Positions 26,330 to 30,286 of a stretch of 64,000 bases of DNA are shown in pieces (positions within the stretch are counted from its first letter, which is position 1; each line of letters opens with the position of its first letter). Under the pieces are notes generated by a model that worked only from the letters and a program-made list of their open reading frames with translations, ran no database searches and was not told the DNA's origin. The DNA lies in IMG/VR virus record IMGVR_UViG_3300020048_000009, positions 96,001-160,000 of that record. The stretch is one strand, 5' to 3'. The position numbers and the translations under genes are program-made. The stretch is from a virus (taxonomy: Duplodnaviria > Caudoviricetes).

Positions 26330-26989
26330 ATGAATAGATCAAATAAAGAATTTACATTTTTTTGGCGTGGTCCGTTTAGTCAATGGCATAAAGCCAATAT
26401 GACTATTAATAATGTCACATATTTTTGTGCTGAGCAATATATGATGGCAGCTAAGGCAAAAGTTTTTGAAGACTATGAGACTTTAAATAAAATTTTACAA
26501 TCAACCTCTCCTAAAGAAATTAAAGATCTTGGTAGAGTTGTTAAAAACTTTAAACAAGAGGTTTGGGATAAAGTTAAGTATTCCATTGTTTATACTGGAA
26601 ATTTCTATAAATTCATCCAGAATTATGATTTAAAAACATTGTTATTAAATACAGAAGATAGTACTTTAGTAGAAGCCAGTCCATATGATAAAGTTTGGGG
26701 TATTGGTATGTCTGAAGATGATCCCGATTGTTTAGATGTAAATAAGTGGAAGGGCGAGAACCTTTTAGGTAAAGCTATTACTAATGTTAGACAAACCATT
26801 AAAAAAGGTATTACGATTATACTTGATTATCAAAATAGCCCTACTCTTTTTGATATTGGTCGTACTAATGAAGAACATAAAGCTATAATTGATGAAAAAA
26901 CATGTACCCATAGATTTGATTTGAAGTATAAAGGTGATACTCCAAGTTGTAATAGATGTGAAATATGTGGATATACGGAGTGGTTTTAA
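26330..26989 (+). CDS. NADAR (YbiA-like) family protein
   Basis: FFWRGPFSQWH, AEQYMMAAKA..F.D, LGR.V.NF, LVEASPYD.VWGIG, GENLLG. Confidence 0.9.
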   Translation: MNRSNKEFTFFWRGPFSQWHKANMTINNVTYFCAEQYMMAAKAKVFEDYETLNKILQSTSPKEIKDLGRVVKNFKQEVWDKVKYSIVYTGNFYKFIQNYDLKTLLLNTEDSTLVEASPYDKVWGIGMSEDDPDCLDVNKWKGENLLGKAITNVRQTIKKGITIILDYQNSPTLFDIGRTNEEHKAIIDEKTCTHRFDLKYKGDTPSCNRCEICGYTEWF

Positions 26990-27495
26990 TATGGGTATTC
27001 TAATAGGAATTGGTATTGGAATAATGGCACAACTGGTAGCAGTTGGTTTAGATTTATGTACAATACGAATTAGACTCACTGAAATACGAGATTTACTTAA
27101 AGAAAACAAATAAAAAAGGAAAAAATAAAATGCTAATATCATTATTCGAATTACGTAAAAAAGTAAATGATCAATATGATTATCTTATTAAAACACAAGG
27201 TGACATAGCCAAGAATATTGAAAAGTGTTATGTTGCTAAAATTCAGGAAAAAGCTGCAAATAATTGGTTTTATAGAACATTTACTGATTATAACAATAAA
27301 ATTTATATGGCTTGTATTTATTGTAACTATTCTAAGGATACGCTCTATAAGAAAATAGATAAAATGAAAGCCCAAATAAATAAACTATATCAAGAGTTTT
27401 ATTATACAGGTAGCAACTATACGGATAAAGAGCAGAAGAAAATGTTTATTCGTTTAACAGATGAAGAAGCTGCTGTTTTAGATTATAAGGTATAA

Positions 27496-28482
27496 ATGAG
27501 TATTAAAGTATTATATACAGGTAGTTTTAATCCCTTCCATAATGGTCACCAATATGTTTATGATATTGCTTGTAAATGTTTTGGTAAAGAAAATGTATGG
27601 ATTGGGATTGGCCAAAACTCTGAAAAAGCTACATCTAATCTTAATAATTTAGCTTTTAGTGTTCGTCCTATTACTAAAAATATTATTACTTATACTGGTT
27701 TAACTGCAAAGGTTCTAAGAGAACATAATTTTGATTTAATTGTTAGAGGTGTTAGACCTGGTAGATCACTAGAAGATGAAAATGATTTACTATATTGGAA
27801 TCGTAAGTTAAGCGGCGGTATAGAGACTATACTTATTCCTACGCCACCAGAGGTCAACCAGATTTCATCTGGTGCCATTAGAATATTGGATGCTAATAAT
27901 GCAACAGTTCTTCCTTATATGAACGAAATAGTTTATTATCGTTGGAAGGATAATACAGATCCTTATGCTAAAAAAATTCCAGTATATTTTGGAAAATGTT
28001 GTTCTGGTAAATCTACACATTTAATGGACCATGTTGCTAGATCATGGGATAATATTGTTTTAGATATGGATAAAACTCTTTTAACCTATCATAATAGAGC
28101 AGACGATCCAAATTTTAATATGGCCGAATTAAAAGAAGATATTAAGAAAATTTTTTATTCTAAAAATGTAAAAGCATTTTATGAGGAAATTGTTGATTTG
28201 GGACATGATATAAATTGGGAAAAATTATTTGGTGTTATTACAGAAATAGAAAAAAATAACTGTAAACCTTTGTTTGATATGCCAAATATTGGTTCATATT
28301 ATAATTGTATTCCTAAAAAATTATTAGGTCGTTTTAAATTTGTTAAGGTTTCGACTTCAGAAGAAAATAGAAAATATTTTGCAGAGCTTAGAAAGGTTAA
28401 TCCGTTATTATTAGAATGTAATGATTTAATGTATGTGGATATGCCATTCTGGGATGAAGAAATAGTTATAGAAAGAAAGTAA
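27496..28482 (+). CDS. coaD: Phosphopantetheine adenylyltransferase (CoaD)-like domain fused to a P-loop kinase-like domain
   Basis: YTGSFNPFHNGH (HxGH), IVRGVR, NRKL..GIET.LI, ISSGAIR match CoaD; C-half YFGKCCSGKST Walker A then VLDMD. Confidence 0.72.
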   Translation: MSIKVLYTGSFNPFHNGHQYVYDIACKCFGKENVWIGIGQNSEKATSNLNNLAFSVRPITKNIITYTGLTAKVLREHNFDLIVRGVRPGRSLEDENDLLYWNRKLSGGIETILIPTPPEVNQISSGAIRILDANNATVLPYMNEIVYYRWKDNTDPYAKKIPVYFGKCCSGKSTHLMDHVARSWDNIVLDMDKTLLTYHNRADDPNFNMAELKEDIKKIFYSKNVKAFYEEIVDLGHDINWEKLFGVITEIEKNNCKPLFDMPNIGSYYNCIPKKLLGRFKFVKVSTSEENRKYFAELRKVNPLLLECNDLMYVDMPFWDEEIVIERK

Positions 28483-30225
28483 TATGAATTTACAAGAACT
28501 AAAAGATGATGCGGTAGATTTTGCTAAAGAACCTGATGAAAAAGTAAGAGAGTTGCTACTTGGTGGTGTTGAAAGAGGTGTGGCGATTGTTGAAAAATTA
28601 CTAAATTATATTAAGAATGATGGATATACTTTAGATAAATGTGGTCATTATTTAAGTGGTATTAACCCCAAAGATGATGAAGAGTTTATTTGTGCAATGG
28701 TTTATGGCGTAATGGGGGGATCGGACCGTGACTATAAAAATTTAGCAGATAATGATGTTGTTATATTTTCTAATATATATCAGTCTGCTTGTTGGAATTG
28801 TGCTGAGAGCGGGTTTTCATTAAAAGTAGATAAAATACAAAAAACAATATCATTGGTTTCATGTAATTATGATAGAACCGCCCCACTTGGTTCTTGTAAA
28901 AAAATAATTAAAGATACCGTATGTAAATATAAAGATGGTCGTCCACCATATAGTATTAGATTAAACATTTCATCGGGTGTAATGTTATTTGCTAATCATT
29001 TTAAACGTTTATTTGATTTTACAGAATTACCAGAATTTAAAGGTAGAGCATATTCTAATGAATTTTGTATTAATTATTTTGAAGGTAGAAAACGCAGTAC
29101 AGAAGAATATGCTAAATTAGGATTAGGCGAATTTAATATTGGTAACTGTGGATGTAATATGTATAAGAAATCTGATGAAGAGTTTTTCGTCGGATATGAT
29201 TATACAGAATATGACGATGATGAAGCAAATAATAAGCCTAATGTTTTTGATAATACTAAAGTTGTCGGAAATGTTTGTACAGACTTCTGGGGCTTTTGTG
29301 TTATAGATAAAGATACATATGAAGCCAAGGTAGGAAAAGACGATTTAACTAAAAGGAAAAAAGAGAATAATATAACATATCTTGATTCTAAAATATTAGA
29401 TGATACTATTAATGCTATTAAATGTACGCCTGGAATTTATGAATTTACTCATTACTATCATCTGTTAAAAGATGGTGATCCTAATGTTTATACAACAATT
29501 AAATTAGTGGAGAAAATTTAAATGGATAATATAGTAAAAACAGATGCAGAAGCTTGGAATTTTCTAATTGAAATGGGCGGTGAATTTAGAATTCATACTA
29601 ATAGGGACGGATTAAGGGTTTATATTTGTATTTGTGATAGAAAATATAGTGGATATTGTAAAGCATTTGAATACCGATGGGATTTATCTAAACCAATAGA
29701 TAAAAATGCTTTAAGCGGAAGACCTGCATATATTAATAAGAAAGCTATTAAAGAACTTACTACAGGTTATAATGGAACACATACGGGTAAAACATTAACC
29801 GAGGCGGTTAATAAACATATTATTGATATGCCTGGAGATGTTCATATTAAAGCTGATGATGAATTAGATATTAAAGACTATTTATGTAAAGATAAATGTT
29901 GTGTTAGATGGACTTTAGAATTTAAAGGTTCTGAAGAAGAATTTAAAAAATTAAGTCTTACTGATGAATAATATAGTGTATTCTTTTTCATAATAAGAGT
30001 ATTATTGTTTTACTTTATGAATGCAAGTGAAACAAAACATCGATATAAATTACTTAGAGCCCAAAAAAGAAGAGAAAAGAATAAGGTTCGTAATAATAGA
30101 ATTAAACCACGTTATCGTCGGTGTGATAATTGTGGTGGTTCAGAGCAATGGTGTTCTTGTTGTAAGATGTGGACCAAAACATGTTGTGTTGATTATGGGA
30201 CATGTATGTGTAGTTAATTTTTAAT

Positions 30226-30286
30226 GGGTATGTAACTCAATTGGTAGAGTCATTGTGTATTGCAGGTTCGACCCCTGTCATATCCA
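30226..30286 (+). ncRNA. tRNA-like element lacking the anticodon arm
   Basis: Acceptor GGGTATG/CATATCC+A, TA, D-arm ACTC-AATTGGTA-GAGT, only 11 nt (CATTGTGTATT), T-arm GCAGG-TTCGACC-CCTGT; no encoded CCA. Confidence 0.75.

What the first reader, a model, noticed from the sequence alone, without database searches (positions are those of the whole stretch)
30226..30286. tRNA-like RNA with acceptor, D and T arms but no anticodon arm
The acceptor (7 bp), D-arm and T-arm are intact, with GG in the D-loop and TTCGA in the T-loop. Only 11 nt lie where ~22 (anticodon arm plus variable loop) belong. The retained elbow suggests an elbow/acceptor mimic: a decoy for tRNA-sensing or tRNA-cutting defences, a substrate for the phage repair enzymes, or an RNase P/Z processing signal. 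Simple decay is also possible. It sits downstream of a Cys-rich small ORF and promoter 29976.
Basis: partly seen in the sequence, partly recalled or inferred. Interest (0 to 1): 0.6.

Follow-up and report, generated by a model that had tools for sequence, protein, structure and literature searches.

The report
Anticodon-less alanine mini-tRNA with protein partner
A giant lake phage has a 61-base gene for a tRNA-shaped RNA that keeps every part except the codon-reading arm, bears the marks for loading alanine, and lies next to a tiny cysteine-rich protein gene in more than 20 distinct phage sequences examined, so it is a maintained two-part device, probably aimed at the translation machinery, and not a decayed tRNA.

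Summary
Window 30226-30286 (+) folds into a 7-bp acceptor stem, a D arm and a T arm. Eleven unpaired bases replace the anticodon arm and variable loop. Rfam tRNA scores it 41.1 bits; ARAGORN misses it.

It is not decay. Three relatives carry the same truncated form at the same place, with compensatory changes in the acceptor and T stems.

The upstream 66-aa gene (30017-30217) belongs to a virus-only family: eight invariant cysteines and, in this subfamily, a basic N-terminal helix. An anticodon-less mini-tRNA lies 3-16 nt from that gene, on either side, in 20 of 25 distinct loci. Fourteen of those 20 keep G1-G2-G3 with G3:U70, mostly with A73, which is the alanine (and tmRNA) identity. Every member with a mini-tRNA has a basic tail; every member without one lacks it.

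Best reading: a processed, CCA-tailed, alanine-chargeable mini-tRNA bound by its partner protein. It would be an analogue of the tmRNA tRNA-like domain with SmpB, but built differently from phage DS6A's "TLD-only" tmRNA. Expression, charging and binding are untested.

Anticodon-less tRNA look-alikes in general are common in phage contigs.

The parts
30226..30286 (+). 61-nt anticodon-arm-less tRNA-like gene ('mini-tRNA', alanine-type acceptor)
   Evidence: Rfam tRNA 41.1 bits; own covariance model R1 67.7 bits, single copy in the genome; fold; conserved with compensatory changes in L146, L147 and L148
30226..30232 (+). acceptor stem 5' strand (GGGTATG); pairs with 30279-30285 (CATATCC). G1:C72, G2:C71, G3:U70
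   Evidence: Across 15 family members 3:70 is G:U in 12 and 2:71 is G:C in 15, while pairs 4-7 covary freely
30235..30250 (+). canonical D arm: 4-bp stem and 8-nt loop with A14, A15, G18, G19, A21
   Evidence: The D stem covaries. A15 matches U48, the last linker base, as a Levitt pair; 15:48 is G-C or A-T in 48 of 55 anticodon-less elements
30251..30261 (+). 11-nt unpaired linker standing for position 26, the anticodon arm and the variable loop
   Evidence: unpaired in the fold; one T/C difference among close relatives; 8-11 nt across the family
30262..30278 (+). T arm: 5-bp stem and TTCGACC loop
   Evidence: Three of its five pairs are exchanged compensatorily in L147/L148
30286..30295 (+). 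discriminator A73 followed by the conserved trailer TCAATTTAA; no encoded CCA
   Evidence: identical in own, L146, L147 and L148, after which the sequences diverge. TCA-type trailers recur in L161, L163 and L045
30017..30217 (+). partner gene: 66-aa protein with a basic N-terminal helix (net charge +13 over 35 residues) and a C-terminal domain with eight invariant Cys (CxxCGG-x3-WCxxC-x6-CC-x2-YGTCxCS); its stop codon lies 8 nt before the RNA
   Evidence: homologues (143 clusters); alignments A3 and A4; AF2 helix 3-26, mean pLDDT 77; adjacency statistics

Best explanation
The element is a working gene for a non-decoding, alanine-type mini-tRNA. Together with the gene 8 nt upstream, which encodes a 66-aa protein with a basic helix and an eight-cysteine (probably zinc-binding) domain, it forms a conserved two-gene phage module. 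Proposed mechanism, with my odds for each step. (1) The pair is co-transcribed, and the RNA is cut out by host RNase P at G1 and by a 3' nuclease in the A/U-rich trailer (about 0.7; inferred). (2) CCA is added by the host enzyme or by the phage's own nucleotidyltransferase, and AlaRS, which needs only the acceptor stem (G3:U70, A73, G2:C71), charges it with alanine (about 0.55; inferred). (3) The partner protein's basic N-terminal helix binds the mini-tRNA, giving a small RNP in which protein takes the place of the missing anticodon arm (about 0.6; inferred from co-occurrence). (4) The RNP acts on the translation apparatus as the tmRNA tRNA-like domain does with SmpB. It would either enter ribosomes whose A site is empty, or compete with host tmRNA-SmpB, AlaRS or EF-Tu (about 0.3; analogy only). 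What is shown: the structure, its covariation, its conservation in truncated form, the gene linkage, the enrichment of the alanine identity, and the tail/RNA correlation. The confidence given (0.45) is for steps 1-3 taken together; that it is a selected, functional RNA gene linked to the partner gene I hold at about 0.9.
For: Structure and selection. Rfam scores it 41.1 bits. Relatives with 73-77% identical partner proteins keep the same 61-nt form. They change U4:A69 to C:G and exchange three T-stem pairs compensatorily, while G3:U70, A73, the linker and the 9-nt trailer are kept. In 15 family members 99.2% of cells are paired, 12 of 16 pairs change on both sides, and 0 of 500 shuffles reach this.

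Linkage, starting from the protein. Among IMG/VR loci of the Cys family, model R1 finds a 57-59-nt mini-tRNA of 50-74 bits next to the gene in 17 of about 22 distinct loci. It is always on the same strand and 3-13 nt away (one case at 288 nt). In 12 loci it lies after the stop codon and in 8 before the ATG. No other neighbouring gene recurs across the loci, apart from one 135-165-aa ORF shared by two locus types.

Linkage, starting from the RNA. Of 13 distinct well-formed Ala-type minis, 8 lie beside a Cys-family gene. Among about 50 non-Ala elements, tblastn with the family found no Cys gene in the fetched loci.

Identity. GGG with G3:U70 occurs in 14 of 20 module RNAs, against 2 of 53 in the general class (Fisher p = 1e-8, not corrected for phylogeny). 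Bacterial alanine identity lies wholly outside the anticodon (PMC9976931).

Tail. The N-terminal net charge is +5 to +15 in the 16 mini-tRNA-bearing members whose start codon could be placed, and the four others, whose start codon could not be placed automatically, are likewise counted here as carrying a basic tail (at least two of them visibly do). It is -7 to 0 in the four placeable members without one, and the fifth (L171) has a non-basic, acidic-leaning N-terminal region (Fisher p = 2e-5 on 20 v 5).

Prospective test on fresh metagenome contigs. Two of two basic-tail members with DNA available had a mini-tRNA, and none of four acidic members did.

Other points. AF2 gives a confident helix at residues 3-26. 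The phage encodes a CCA-adding-type nucleotidyltransferase and already has an ordinary tRNA-Ala, so the mini is not a replacement for it. A TLD-only tmRNA exists in phage DS6A, and a similar molecule inhibits tmRNA in E. coli (PMC4131195 and PMC11915505).
Against: There is no expression, end-mapping, charging or binding data; the run search listed only DNA holders. Six of 20 module RNAs lack G3:U70 (acceptors beginning UGG, UGC or GGU), so alanine charging cannot be universal. Five of 13 Ala-type minis have no Cys gene beside them. The minor alanine determinants G4:C69 and G20 are absent here (U4:A69 and U20). The element has an ordinary tRNA D arm and none of the tmRNA-specific D loop or P2 helix that SmpB is known to use, and R1 does not find the DS6A RNA. 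The phage record (84% complete) has no tmRNA or SmpB gene. The co-occurrence statistics are not corrected for shared ancestry. The Cys domain gave no Pfam, PHROG or PDB match, by sequence or by fold, and its last 10 residues are modelled poorly.
Confidence: 0.45

Rival explanations
1. It is only an RNA-processing mark. Host RNase P and RNase Z/E cut the polycistronic phage transcript at the tRNA-like fold, setting the 3' end (or, in other phages, the 5' end) of the small gene's mRNA. The excised RNA itself has no job.
For: The element keeps what RNase P, RNase Z and the CCA enzyme contact (acceptor, T arm, elbow) and has lost what only the ribosome and most synthetases use; that attribution is my own knowledge of those enzymes. 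No promoter or terminator of its own was found. The wider class sits in short gaps between co-directional genes: before terS and portal genes, between capsid and tail-tube genes, and before TnpB genes, often right in front of a Shine-Dalgarno site. In the 'upstream' arrangement the partner gene's ATG follows the RNA by 8-11 nt without a Shine-Dalgarno site.
Against: This does not explain why G3:U70, G2:C71 and A73 are held while pairs 4-7 change freely. It does not explain why Ala-type elements go with this one gene family while about 50 non-Ala ones do not. It does not explain why only basic-tailed family members have the RNA. The RNA lies on either side of the gene, so no single mRNA end is being set.
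Confidence: 0.2
2. It is a decoy or competitive inhibitor. An uncuttable tRNA body soaks up a host tRNA-directed defence enzyme. Alternatively, like synthetic alanine minihelices, it ties up AlaRS, EF-Tu or SmpB to damp host translation or trans-translation, with the protein as helper.
For: The elbow and acceptor are intact and there is no scissile anticodon loop. A TLD-like RNA inhibits tmRNA in E. coli whether or not it can be charged, perhaps by titrating SmpB (PMC4131195). That would tolerate the 6 of 20 non-Ala variants. [quoted passage not shown]
Against: Known anticodon nucleases read the anticodon loop, so a loop-less decoy should bind them poorly (my own knowledge). No defence or anti-defence gene is linked to the module: no other neighbour recurs beyond one ORF shared by two locus types. 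A titrating decoy needs high copy number, yet no strong promoter was found. The dedicated partner protein is unexplained.
Confidence: 0.15
3. It is a cis-acting operator. The protein binds the tRNA-like fold on its own transcript to control its own synthesis, as ThrRS and ribosomal proteins do with tRNA- or rRNA-like operators, and the RNA has no trans function.
For: The spacing is tight (3-16 nt) on either side of the gene, the tail correlates with the RNA, and there is no Shine-Dalgarno site in the 16 tail-bearing genes whose start codon could be placed.
Against: An operator placed after the stop codon (12 of 20 loci) cannot occlude initiation. An operator has no need of a full alanine identity set and a perfect tRNA core. 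Some modules encode CCA (L154, L173, L178), which points to a matured free RNA.
Confidence: 0.08
4. It is a decaying tRNA pseudogene that lost its anticodon arm through a deletion.
For: It is short, ARAGORN does not call it, it has no encoded CCA, and its fold energy is not exceptional.
Against: The same truncated form is kept in relatives with compensatory changes. Family-wide covariation is strong. All core tertiary nucleotides are intact. Linkage to a gene family is conserved across highly diverged phages.
Confidence: 0.02

Closest known systems
TLD-only ('CDS-less') tmRNA of mycobacteriophage DS6A (JN698994 28478-28560), and the ~65-bp CDS-less plastid tmRNAs (Hudson et al. 2014, PMC4131195; PMC11915505)
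   Same: A phage-encoded small RNA with an alanine-type acceptor stem (G3:U70, A73) and a T arm, and with no way to read or supply a codon. A similar molecule is reported to inhibit tmRNA in E. coli.
   Different: The DS6A RNA is 83 nt, with the tmRNA-type D loop (no D stem) and a P2 helix, and scores 43.2 bits on Rfam tmRNA. The present RNA is 61 nt, has a canonical covarying D arm and no helix at all at the anticodon position, and scores as tRNA. R1 gives only weak, partial matches of up to 14.8 bits in DS6A: the single match inside that gene covers its T arm only, and the two other matches of comparable score lie elsewhere in the genome. No dedicated partner protein is reported for DS6A in the two papers read.
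tmRNA tRNA-like domain with SmpB (trans-translation)
   Same: An alanine-accepting tRNA-like body without an anticodon arm, together with a small protein carrying a long basic tail. That is the design proposed here.
   Different: There is no mRNA-like domain or tag. The protein is unrelated to SmpB: an eight-Cys domain of about 35 aa with its tail at the N terminus, whereas SmpB is an OB-like barrel with a C-terminal tail. Neither ribosome binding nor RNA binding has been tested.
mascRNA (from MALAT1) and plant-mitochondrial t-elements
   Same: tRNA-shaped RNAs of about 58-61 nt with a stunted anticodon arm, lying inside longer transcripts and recognised by tRNA-processing enzymes. This is the best analogy for the wider class seen in phage contigs.
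   Different: Those are eukaryotic or organellar, have no alanine identity set, and have no linked protein gene.
Synthetic alanine minihelices and microhelices (Francklyn and Schimmel 1989, cited in PMC9976931)
   Same: They show that AlaRS charges RNAs that have only an acceptor/T helix with G3:U70, so an anticodon-less RNA can carry alanine.
   Different: They are laboratory constructs without the D arm or elbow. The natural element keeps the full tRNA core.
YrlA-type bacterial and phage Y RNAs with Ro60
   Same: A non-decoding tRNA-like module (acceptor-like, D and T arms) working with a dedicated protein.
   Different: Y RNAs carry a long Ro-binding helix where the anticodon arm would be. 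There is none here, Rfam YrlA does not match, and the Ro60-like gene lies about 100 kb away.

Membership tests
Canonical tRNA (Rfam RF00005) | 7-bp acceptor stem, D arm with G18G19, and T arm with a T-loop | tested here: met
Canonical tRNA (Rfam RF00005) | Anticodon arm (5-bp stem, 7-nt loop, anticodon) | tested here: not met
   11 unpaired nt instead; ARAGORN makes no call
Canonical tRNA (Rfam RF00005) | Score at or above the gathering threshold (29 bits) | tested here: met
   41.1 bits, but only with 18 model positions replaced by 7 nt; missed by the whole-window gathering run
tmRNA, including the TLD-only form (Rfam RF00023) | Alanine-type acceptor: G3:U70 with A73 | tested here: met
   kept in 12 of 15 family members
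tmRNA, including the TLD-only form (Rfam RF00023) | tmRNA-type D loop without a stem, plus the P2 helix | tested here: not met
   A canonical covarying D stem and no helix after it, in contrast to DS6A
tmRNA, including the TLD-only form (Rfam RF00023) | Rfam tmRNA score at or above 47 bits; an mRNA-like domain with a tag frame | tested here: not met
   No tmRNA match at this place; relatives score 23.6-32.3 bits; there is no room for a tag
tmRNA, including the TLD-only form (Rfam RF00023) | Works with SmpB | not testable with these tools
   No SmpB gene in the phage record; host unknown
AlaRS substrates (bacterial alanine identity: A73, G2-C71, G3.U70, G4-C69, G20; PMC9976931) | Major determinants G3.U70, A73 and G2-C71 | tested here: met
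AlaRS substrates (bacterial alanine identity: A73, G2-C71, G3.U70, G4-C69, G20; PMC9976931) | Minor determinants G4-C69 and G20 | tested here: not met
   U4-A69 here (C-G in L146) and U20
AlaRS substrates (bacterial alanine identity: A73, G2-C71, G3.U70, G4-C69, G20; PMC9976931) | A 3' CCA end and actual charging with alanine | not testable with these tools
   CCA is not encoded here (TCA follows) but is encoded in some relatives; the phage has a CCA-adding-type enzyme gene
tRNA-like processing signals (mascRNA, t-elements) | A tRNA-like fold with a reduced anticodon arm, embedded in a longer transcript | tested here: inconclusive
   The fold is met. No promoter or terminator of its own was found, but transcripts were not observed
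tRNA-like processing signals (mascRNA, t-elements) | Cleavage by RNase P and RNase Z | not testable with these tools
   -
Y RNA (YrlA, Rfam RF02553) | A Ro60-binding helix joined to the tRNA-like module | tested here: not met
   No such helix; no YrlA match at E up to 10

The most novel reading that the evidence does not exclude
The module encodes a previously undescribed ribonucleoprotein adaptor. It would be an alanine-charged tRNA body whose missing anticodon arm is replaced by the basic helix and zinc domain of its own partner protein: a phage-made, tag-less counterpart of tmRNA-SmpB. This RNP would enter ribosomes with an empty or stalled A site, either to free them for phage use or to sabotage host rescue.
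Probability: 0.25. Interest if true: 0.9.

Novelty: new variant of a known kind. Interest (0 to 1): 0.74.

Why it matters
Non-decoding tRNA look-alikes are known: the tmRNA tRNA-like domain, the DS6A TLD-only RNA, mascRNA and Y RNAs. I found no description of a canonical tRNA body that lacks only the anticodon arm, keeps the alanine identity, and travels with a dedicated mini-protein gene.

If the pair forms an RNP on the ribosome, it would be a second, independent solution to the problem that tmRNA-SmpB solves. It would also be a new way for phages to manipulate translation. If it only titrates AlaRS, SmpB or EF-Tu, it would still be a compact natural inhibitor of translation quality control.

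The protein family (143 clusters at 50% identity, seen only in viral or metagenome DNA) would gain its first functional lead.

The wider class of anticodon-less tRNA-likes between phage structural genes suggests that tRNA-style punctuation of bacterial-virus mRNAs is under-appreciated. Standard tRNA finders miss all of these.

Tried and rejected
- Close relatives by neighbouring proteins: the 345-aa and 149-aa ORFs gave no related loci in IMG/VR.
- blastn of the region against INPHARED phages: no match.
- An exact pattern of the element in IMG/VR: no match.
- tblastn of two family proteins against INPHARED: no match. L082 was not found among cultured phages.
- Cys family in 185,579 bacterial and archaeal genomes: no relative found with the motif pattern.
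- Sequencing runs: no RNA holder listed, only DNA runs from aquatic or lake metagenomes, so expression could not be examined and read laying was not used.
- Pfam and PHROGs on the partner protein and its neighbours: no hit for the Cys protein.
- PDB by sequence and by fold: nothing significant.
- ESM Atlas: only unnamed viral clusters at chance-level scores.
- Promoter and terminator scan: nothing above chance.
- Similarity to the phage's own tRNAs. The 5' half resembles tRNA-Gly(UCC), and the T arm is identical over 18 nt to that of tRNA-Lys(UUU). No single parent tRNA emerges, and it is not a copy of the phage tRNA-Ala.
- Literature: no paper in the searched library describes anticodon-less tRNA-likes in phages. 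Mao et al. 2009 and Hipps and Schimmel 1995 could not be read.
- Y RNA reading: rejected, because there is no Ro-binding helix and no YrlA match.
- attP or integration remnant: rejected, because both halves of the acceptor stem are present and covary.
- Complex prediction was not used. It takes no RNA, and I claim no protein-protein contact.
- A protein tree to correct the co-occurrence counts for ancestry was not attempted. The shared domain has about 33 residues, 9 of them invariant.

Full report
**1. The observation**

Window 30226-30286 (+) reads as follows:
- a 7-bp acceptor stem with a G:U wobble at 3:70
- TA at positions 8-9
- a 4-bp D stem with an 8-nt loop that holds A14, A15, G18, G19 and A21
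- 11 unpaired bases
- a 5-bp T stem with a TTCGACC loop
- the 3' acceptor strand and discriminator A

The minimum-energy fold is exactly this three-helix shape with the linker open, although the energy alone is not unusual (z = -0.71). Rfam's tRNA model scores 41.1 bits, above its gathering score of 29, by aligning 7 nt against 18 positions of the anticodon arm (E 2.2e-8 over the whole genome). ARAGORN does not call it.

**2. Setting**

The window is bases 96001-160000 of a 211,678-bp IMG/VR phage record, about 84% complete and about 29% G+C.
- ARAGORN tRNAs in the phage: 24 lie at 83-93 kb and an amber suppressor at 140 kb. Rfam adds several odd tRNA-like RNAs in the 83-93 kb cluster.
- Nearly all the ordinary tRNAs encode their CCA end (tRNA-Phe(AAA) does not). 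The element does not: TCA follows A73.
- It stands alone, 33 kb from the tRNA array, in a 94-nt gap between two co-directional small genes.
- No promoter-like or terminator-like site exceeds chance there.
- The phage already has an ordinary tRNA-Ala(UGC).
- It encodes a CCA-adding-type nucleotidyltransferase.
- No tmRNA reaches threshold and there is no SmpB gene.

**3. It is not decay**

The neighbouring 66-aa protein has five relatives in the protein collection, which gave access to related loci. Contigs L146 and L147/L148, whose proteins are 73-77% identical, carry the same 61-nt element at the same place.
- L146 changes U4:A69 to C:G and G49:U65 to G:C.
- L147/L148 exchange three T-stem pairs compensatorily.
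- G3:U70, A73, the linker (one T/C difference) and nine trailer bases are unchanged. Similarity then stops.

**4. The neighbour gene**

ORF 30017-30217 encodes a protein in two parts. The N-terminal half is strongly basic. The C-terminal part is a roughly 33-residue domain with eight invariant cysteines plus an invariant Trp and near-invariant Gly-Gly, Tyr-Gly and terminal Ser (alignments A3 and A4).
- A profile search finds 143 clusters at 50% identity, 57 of them at E < 1e-10, and the domain is always at the C terminus of a small protein.
- There is no Pfam, PHROG or PDB relative.
- No copy was found in 185,579 prokaryote genomes or among cultured phages.
- AlphaFold2 on 70 sequences gives a confident helix at residues 3-26 followed by a small beta-rich domain (mean pLDDT 77).

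**5. RNA and gene form a module**

*Starting from the protein.* I fetched 28 IMG/VR loci of the family. I scanned 20 of them with Rfam, and all 28 with a covariance model (R1) built from 15 of the RNAs. A 57-59-nt anticodon-less tRNA-like RNA of 50-74 bits lies beside the gene in 17 of about 22 distinct loci. With this phage and L146/L147 the count is 20 of 25.
- It is always on the same strand.
- It is 3-13 nt from the gene, with one case at 288 nt.
- It follows the stop codon in 12 loci and precedes the ATG by 8-11 nt in 8 loci.
- No other neighbouring gene recurs across the loci, apart from one 135-165-aa ORF shared by two locus types.

*Starting from the RNA.* A pattern restricted to Ala-type minis returned 22 loci in all of IMG/VR. 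Thirteen distinct well-formed elements remain. Eight lie beside a Cys-family gene, counting one cut by its contig end, and five do not.

*Non-Ala elements.* Among about 50 anticodon-less elements of other acceptor types, tblastn with the family found no Cys gene in the fetched loci.

**6. Alanine identity**

In the 15-sequence alignment 99.2% of cells pair and 12 of 16 pairs change on both sides. No shuffle or slid register comes near. Acceptor pairs 4-7 take three to five different pair types each. In contrast, 2:71 is G:C in 15 of 15, 1:72 is G:C in 12, and 3:70 is the G:U wobble in 12.
- Over all module RNAs, 14 of 20 have GGG with G3:U70, and 13 of those 14 have A73.
- In the general class the figure is 2 of 53 (Fisher p = 1e-8, not corrected for relatedness).
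- Bacterial alanine identity is A73, G2-C71, G3.U70, G4-C69 and G20, with nothing in the anticodon (PMC9976931). Minihelices with G3:U70 are charged (Francklyn and Schimmel 1989, cited there).
- Here the three main determinants are present. G4-C69 and G20 are not.
- Six module RNAs have other acceptors, mostly starting U1:A72, so alanylation cannot be universal.

**7. Basic tail goes with the RNA**

In the 16 mini-tRNA-bearing members whose start codon could be placed, the region before the Cys domain has a net charge of +5 to +15. The four others (L155, L173, L176 and L045) could not be scored automatically; L155 and L173 visibly have basic tails, L045 starts with a basic stretch before its contig ends, and I did not read L176's N-terminal region, so its tail is assumed. 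The four placeable members without the RNA (L174, L177, L181 and L149) score -7 to -1, and some carry extra zinc-finger-like motifs instead. L171, also without the RNA, has a non-basic, acidic-leaning N-terminal region.

I then tested this prospectively on eight fresh representatives from metagenomes.
- Two of four basic-tail picks had DNA available, and both carry a mini-tRNA: L184, Ala-type, 16 nt upstream; and L185/L186, 8 nt downstream, in a variant with an extended stem.
- None of the four acidic ones does, although three have ordinary tRNA genes within 60-200 nt.

This argues that the helix and the RNA work together, most simply by binding. The counts are not independent in a phylogenetic sense.

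**8. The wider class**

The pairing scores are bimodal, and 55 unique elements have 15-16 of 16 pairs with 6-17-nt linkers.
- The last five linker bases look like a variable loop.
- The 15:48 Levitt pair is G-C or A-T in 48 of 55, so the tRNA core is kept.
- They lie in short gaps between co-directional genes: before small-terminase and portal genes, between capsid and tail-tube genes, and directly before TnpB genes (four copies in L082). A Shine-Dalgarno site often follows immediately.

For these elements, a role as RNase P/Z punctuation of phage mRNAs is the most economical reading. It is untested.

**9. How it most likely works**

The element retains what RNase P, 3'-processing nucleases, the CCA enzyme, AlaRS and EF-Tu touch. 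It lacks what only decoding needs. This attribution is established knowledge of those enzymes, not something tested here.

I therefore infer the following sequence:
- co-transcription with the partner gene
- excision
- CCA addition, possibly by the phage's own enzyme
- alanylation
- capture by the partner's basic helix

The design of an alanyl tRNA-like body without an anticodon arm, plus a small protein with a long basic tail, is that of the tmRNA tRNA-like domain with SmpB. A TLD-like RNA is reported to inhibit tmRNA in E. coli whether or not it can be charged (PMC4131195 and PMC11915505). One related phage lineage carries a true tmRNA 760 nt upstream of the module. So the module is not simply a substitute for a phage tmRNA.

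Whether the RNP rescues ribosomes, blocks host rescue, or does something else is open.

**10. Comparison with the known**

I located DS6A's TLD-only tmRNA at JN698994 28478-28560. It is 83 nt, with a tmRNA-type D loop, a P2 helix and 43.2 bits on Rfam tmRNA. R1 gives only weak, partial matches of up to 14.8 bits in DS6A: the single match inside that gene covers its T arm only, and the two other matches of comparable score lie elsewhere in the genome.

The present family has a canonical, covarying D arm and no helix in place of the anticodon arm. It therefore fails membership of tmRNA, and it fails membership of decoding tRNA for lack of an anticodon arm. In shape it is nearest to mascRNA. In proposed function it is nearest to TLD-SmpB. 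I found no paper describing it.

Earlier notes of this scan describe related things on other DNA:
- an alanine-type mini RNA (e1-4782777)
- small Cys-rich genes inside phage two-piece tmRNA genes (e1-5381687, e1-5365616, e1-5342090)

I did not verify these notes, and the motif quoted for one of those proteins differs from this family's.

**11. Limits**

- No RNA data exist for this phage.
- Charging, binding and function are all inferred.
- 30% of module RNAs are not Ala-type, and about 40% of Ala-type minis have no Cys gene nearby.
- The Cys domain's fold and metal are unknown.
- The absence of a Shine-Dalgarno site before the 16 tail-bearing genes whose start codon could be placed may simply reflect host usage.

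Noticed in passing
IMG/VR loci L029-L142 (e.g. L037, L039, L064, L096): Anticodon-arm-less tRNA look-alikes (perfect acceptor, D and T stems; 6-17-nt linker; covarying 15:48 pair) are common in phage contigs. There are 55 unique ones in the first 114 pattern hits. They lie in short gaps before small-terminase and portal genes and between capsid and tail-tube genes, often directly in front of a Shine-Dalgarno site. Most are not alanine-type. They look like tRNA-style punctuation of phage mRNAs.
   Followed up: partly
L082 (four copies within 13 kb) and L120: The same kind of mini tRNA-like element sits 0-46 nt upstream of TnpB (OrfB_IS605 / Cas12f-like TNB) genes, and four near-identical-stem copies occur in one 180-kb phage contig. 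It may be part of the insertion sequence's left end or a device to cut tnpB mRNA out of read-through transcripts.
   Followed up: no
G000:C1:86251-86329 (outside the window, in the tRNA array): A 79-nt tRNA-like gene with a UCU (Arg) anticodon hairpin whose D-stem halves lie on either side of the anticodon arm. Rfam tRNA gives only 25.6 bits. Its T arm is nearly identical to that of the mini-tRNA. The layout matches earlier scan notes on rearranged phage tRNA-Arg.
   Followed up: no
L143/L145 1157-1600 (same phage type as L032/L178): A full-length phage tmRNA (Rfam 89.9 bits) lies about 760 nt upstream of the mini-tRNA/Cys-gene module, with ordinary tRNAs downstream. The module therefore coexists with a complete tmRNA.
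   Followed up: partly
L149, L167, L177, L187, L189, L190: Cys-domain family members that lack the basic tail and the mini-tRNA still tend to lie within or beside ordinary tRNA genes (Met, Lys, His). The whole family may be tRNA-related.
   Followed up: partly
L185/L186 805-885: A variant of the module RNA in which the tRNA-like body sits on an 11-bp perfect extended stem (flanking inverted repeat) instead of a plain 7-bp acceptor stem.
   Followed up: no
window 26330-28482: A NADAR-domain gene (E 3e-51), a small 121-aa ORF, and then a 328-aa protein with an N-terminal cytidylyltransferase-like (NMNAT-type) domain. This looks like a NAD/ADP-ribose-related block 2-4 kb upstream of the element.
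   Followed up: no
G000:C1:32078-32437 (outside the window): The phage encodes a PolyA_pol/CCA-adding-type nucleotidyltransferase (435-aa open frame, 69.7 bits), although nearly all of its ordinary tRNAs already encode CCA. The mini-tRNA is a tRNA-shaped gene here that would need it.
   Followed up: partly
window 30005-30016 and the equivalent places in L146-L178: None of the 16 basic-tailed Cys genes whose start codon could be placed has a Shine-Dalgarno site. Where the RNA is upstream, the ATG follows the RNA's 3' end by only 8-11 A/T-rich bases, so the processed mRNA would be nearly leaderless.
   Followed up: partly
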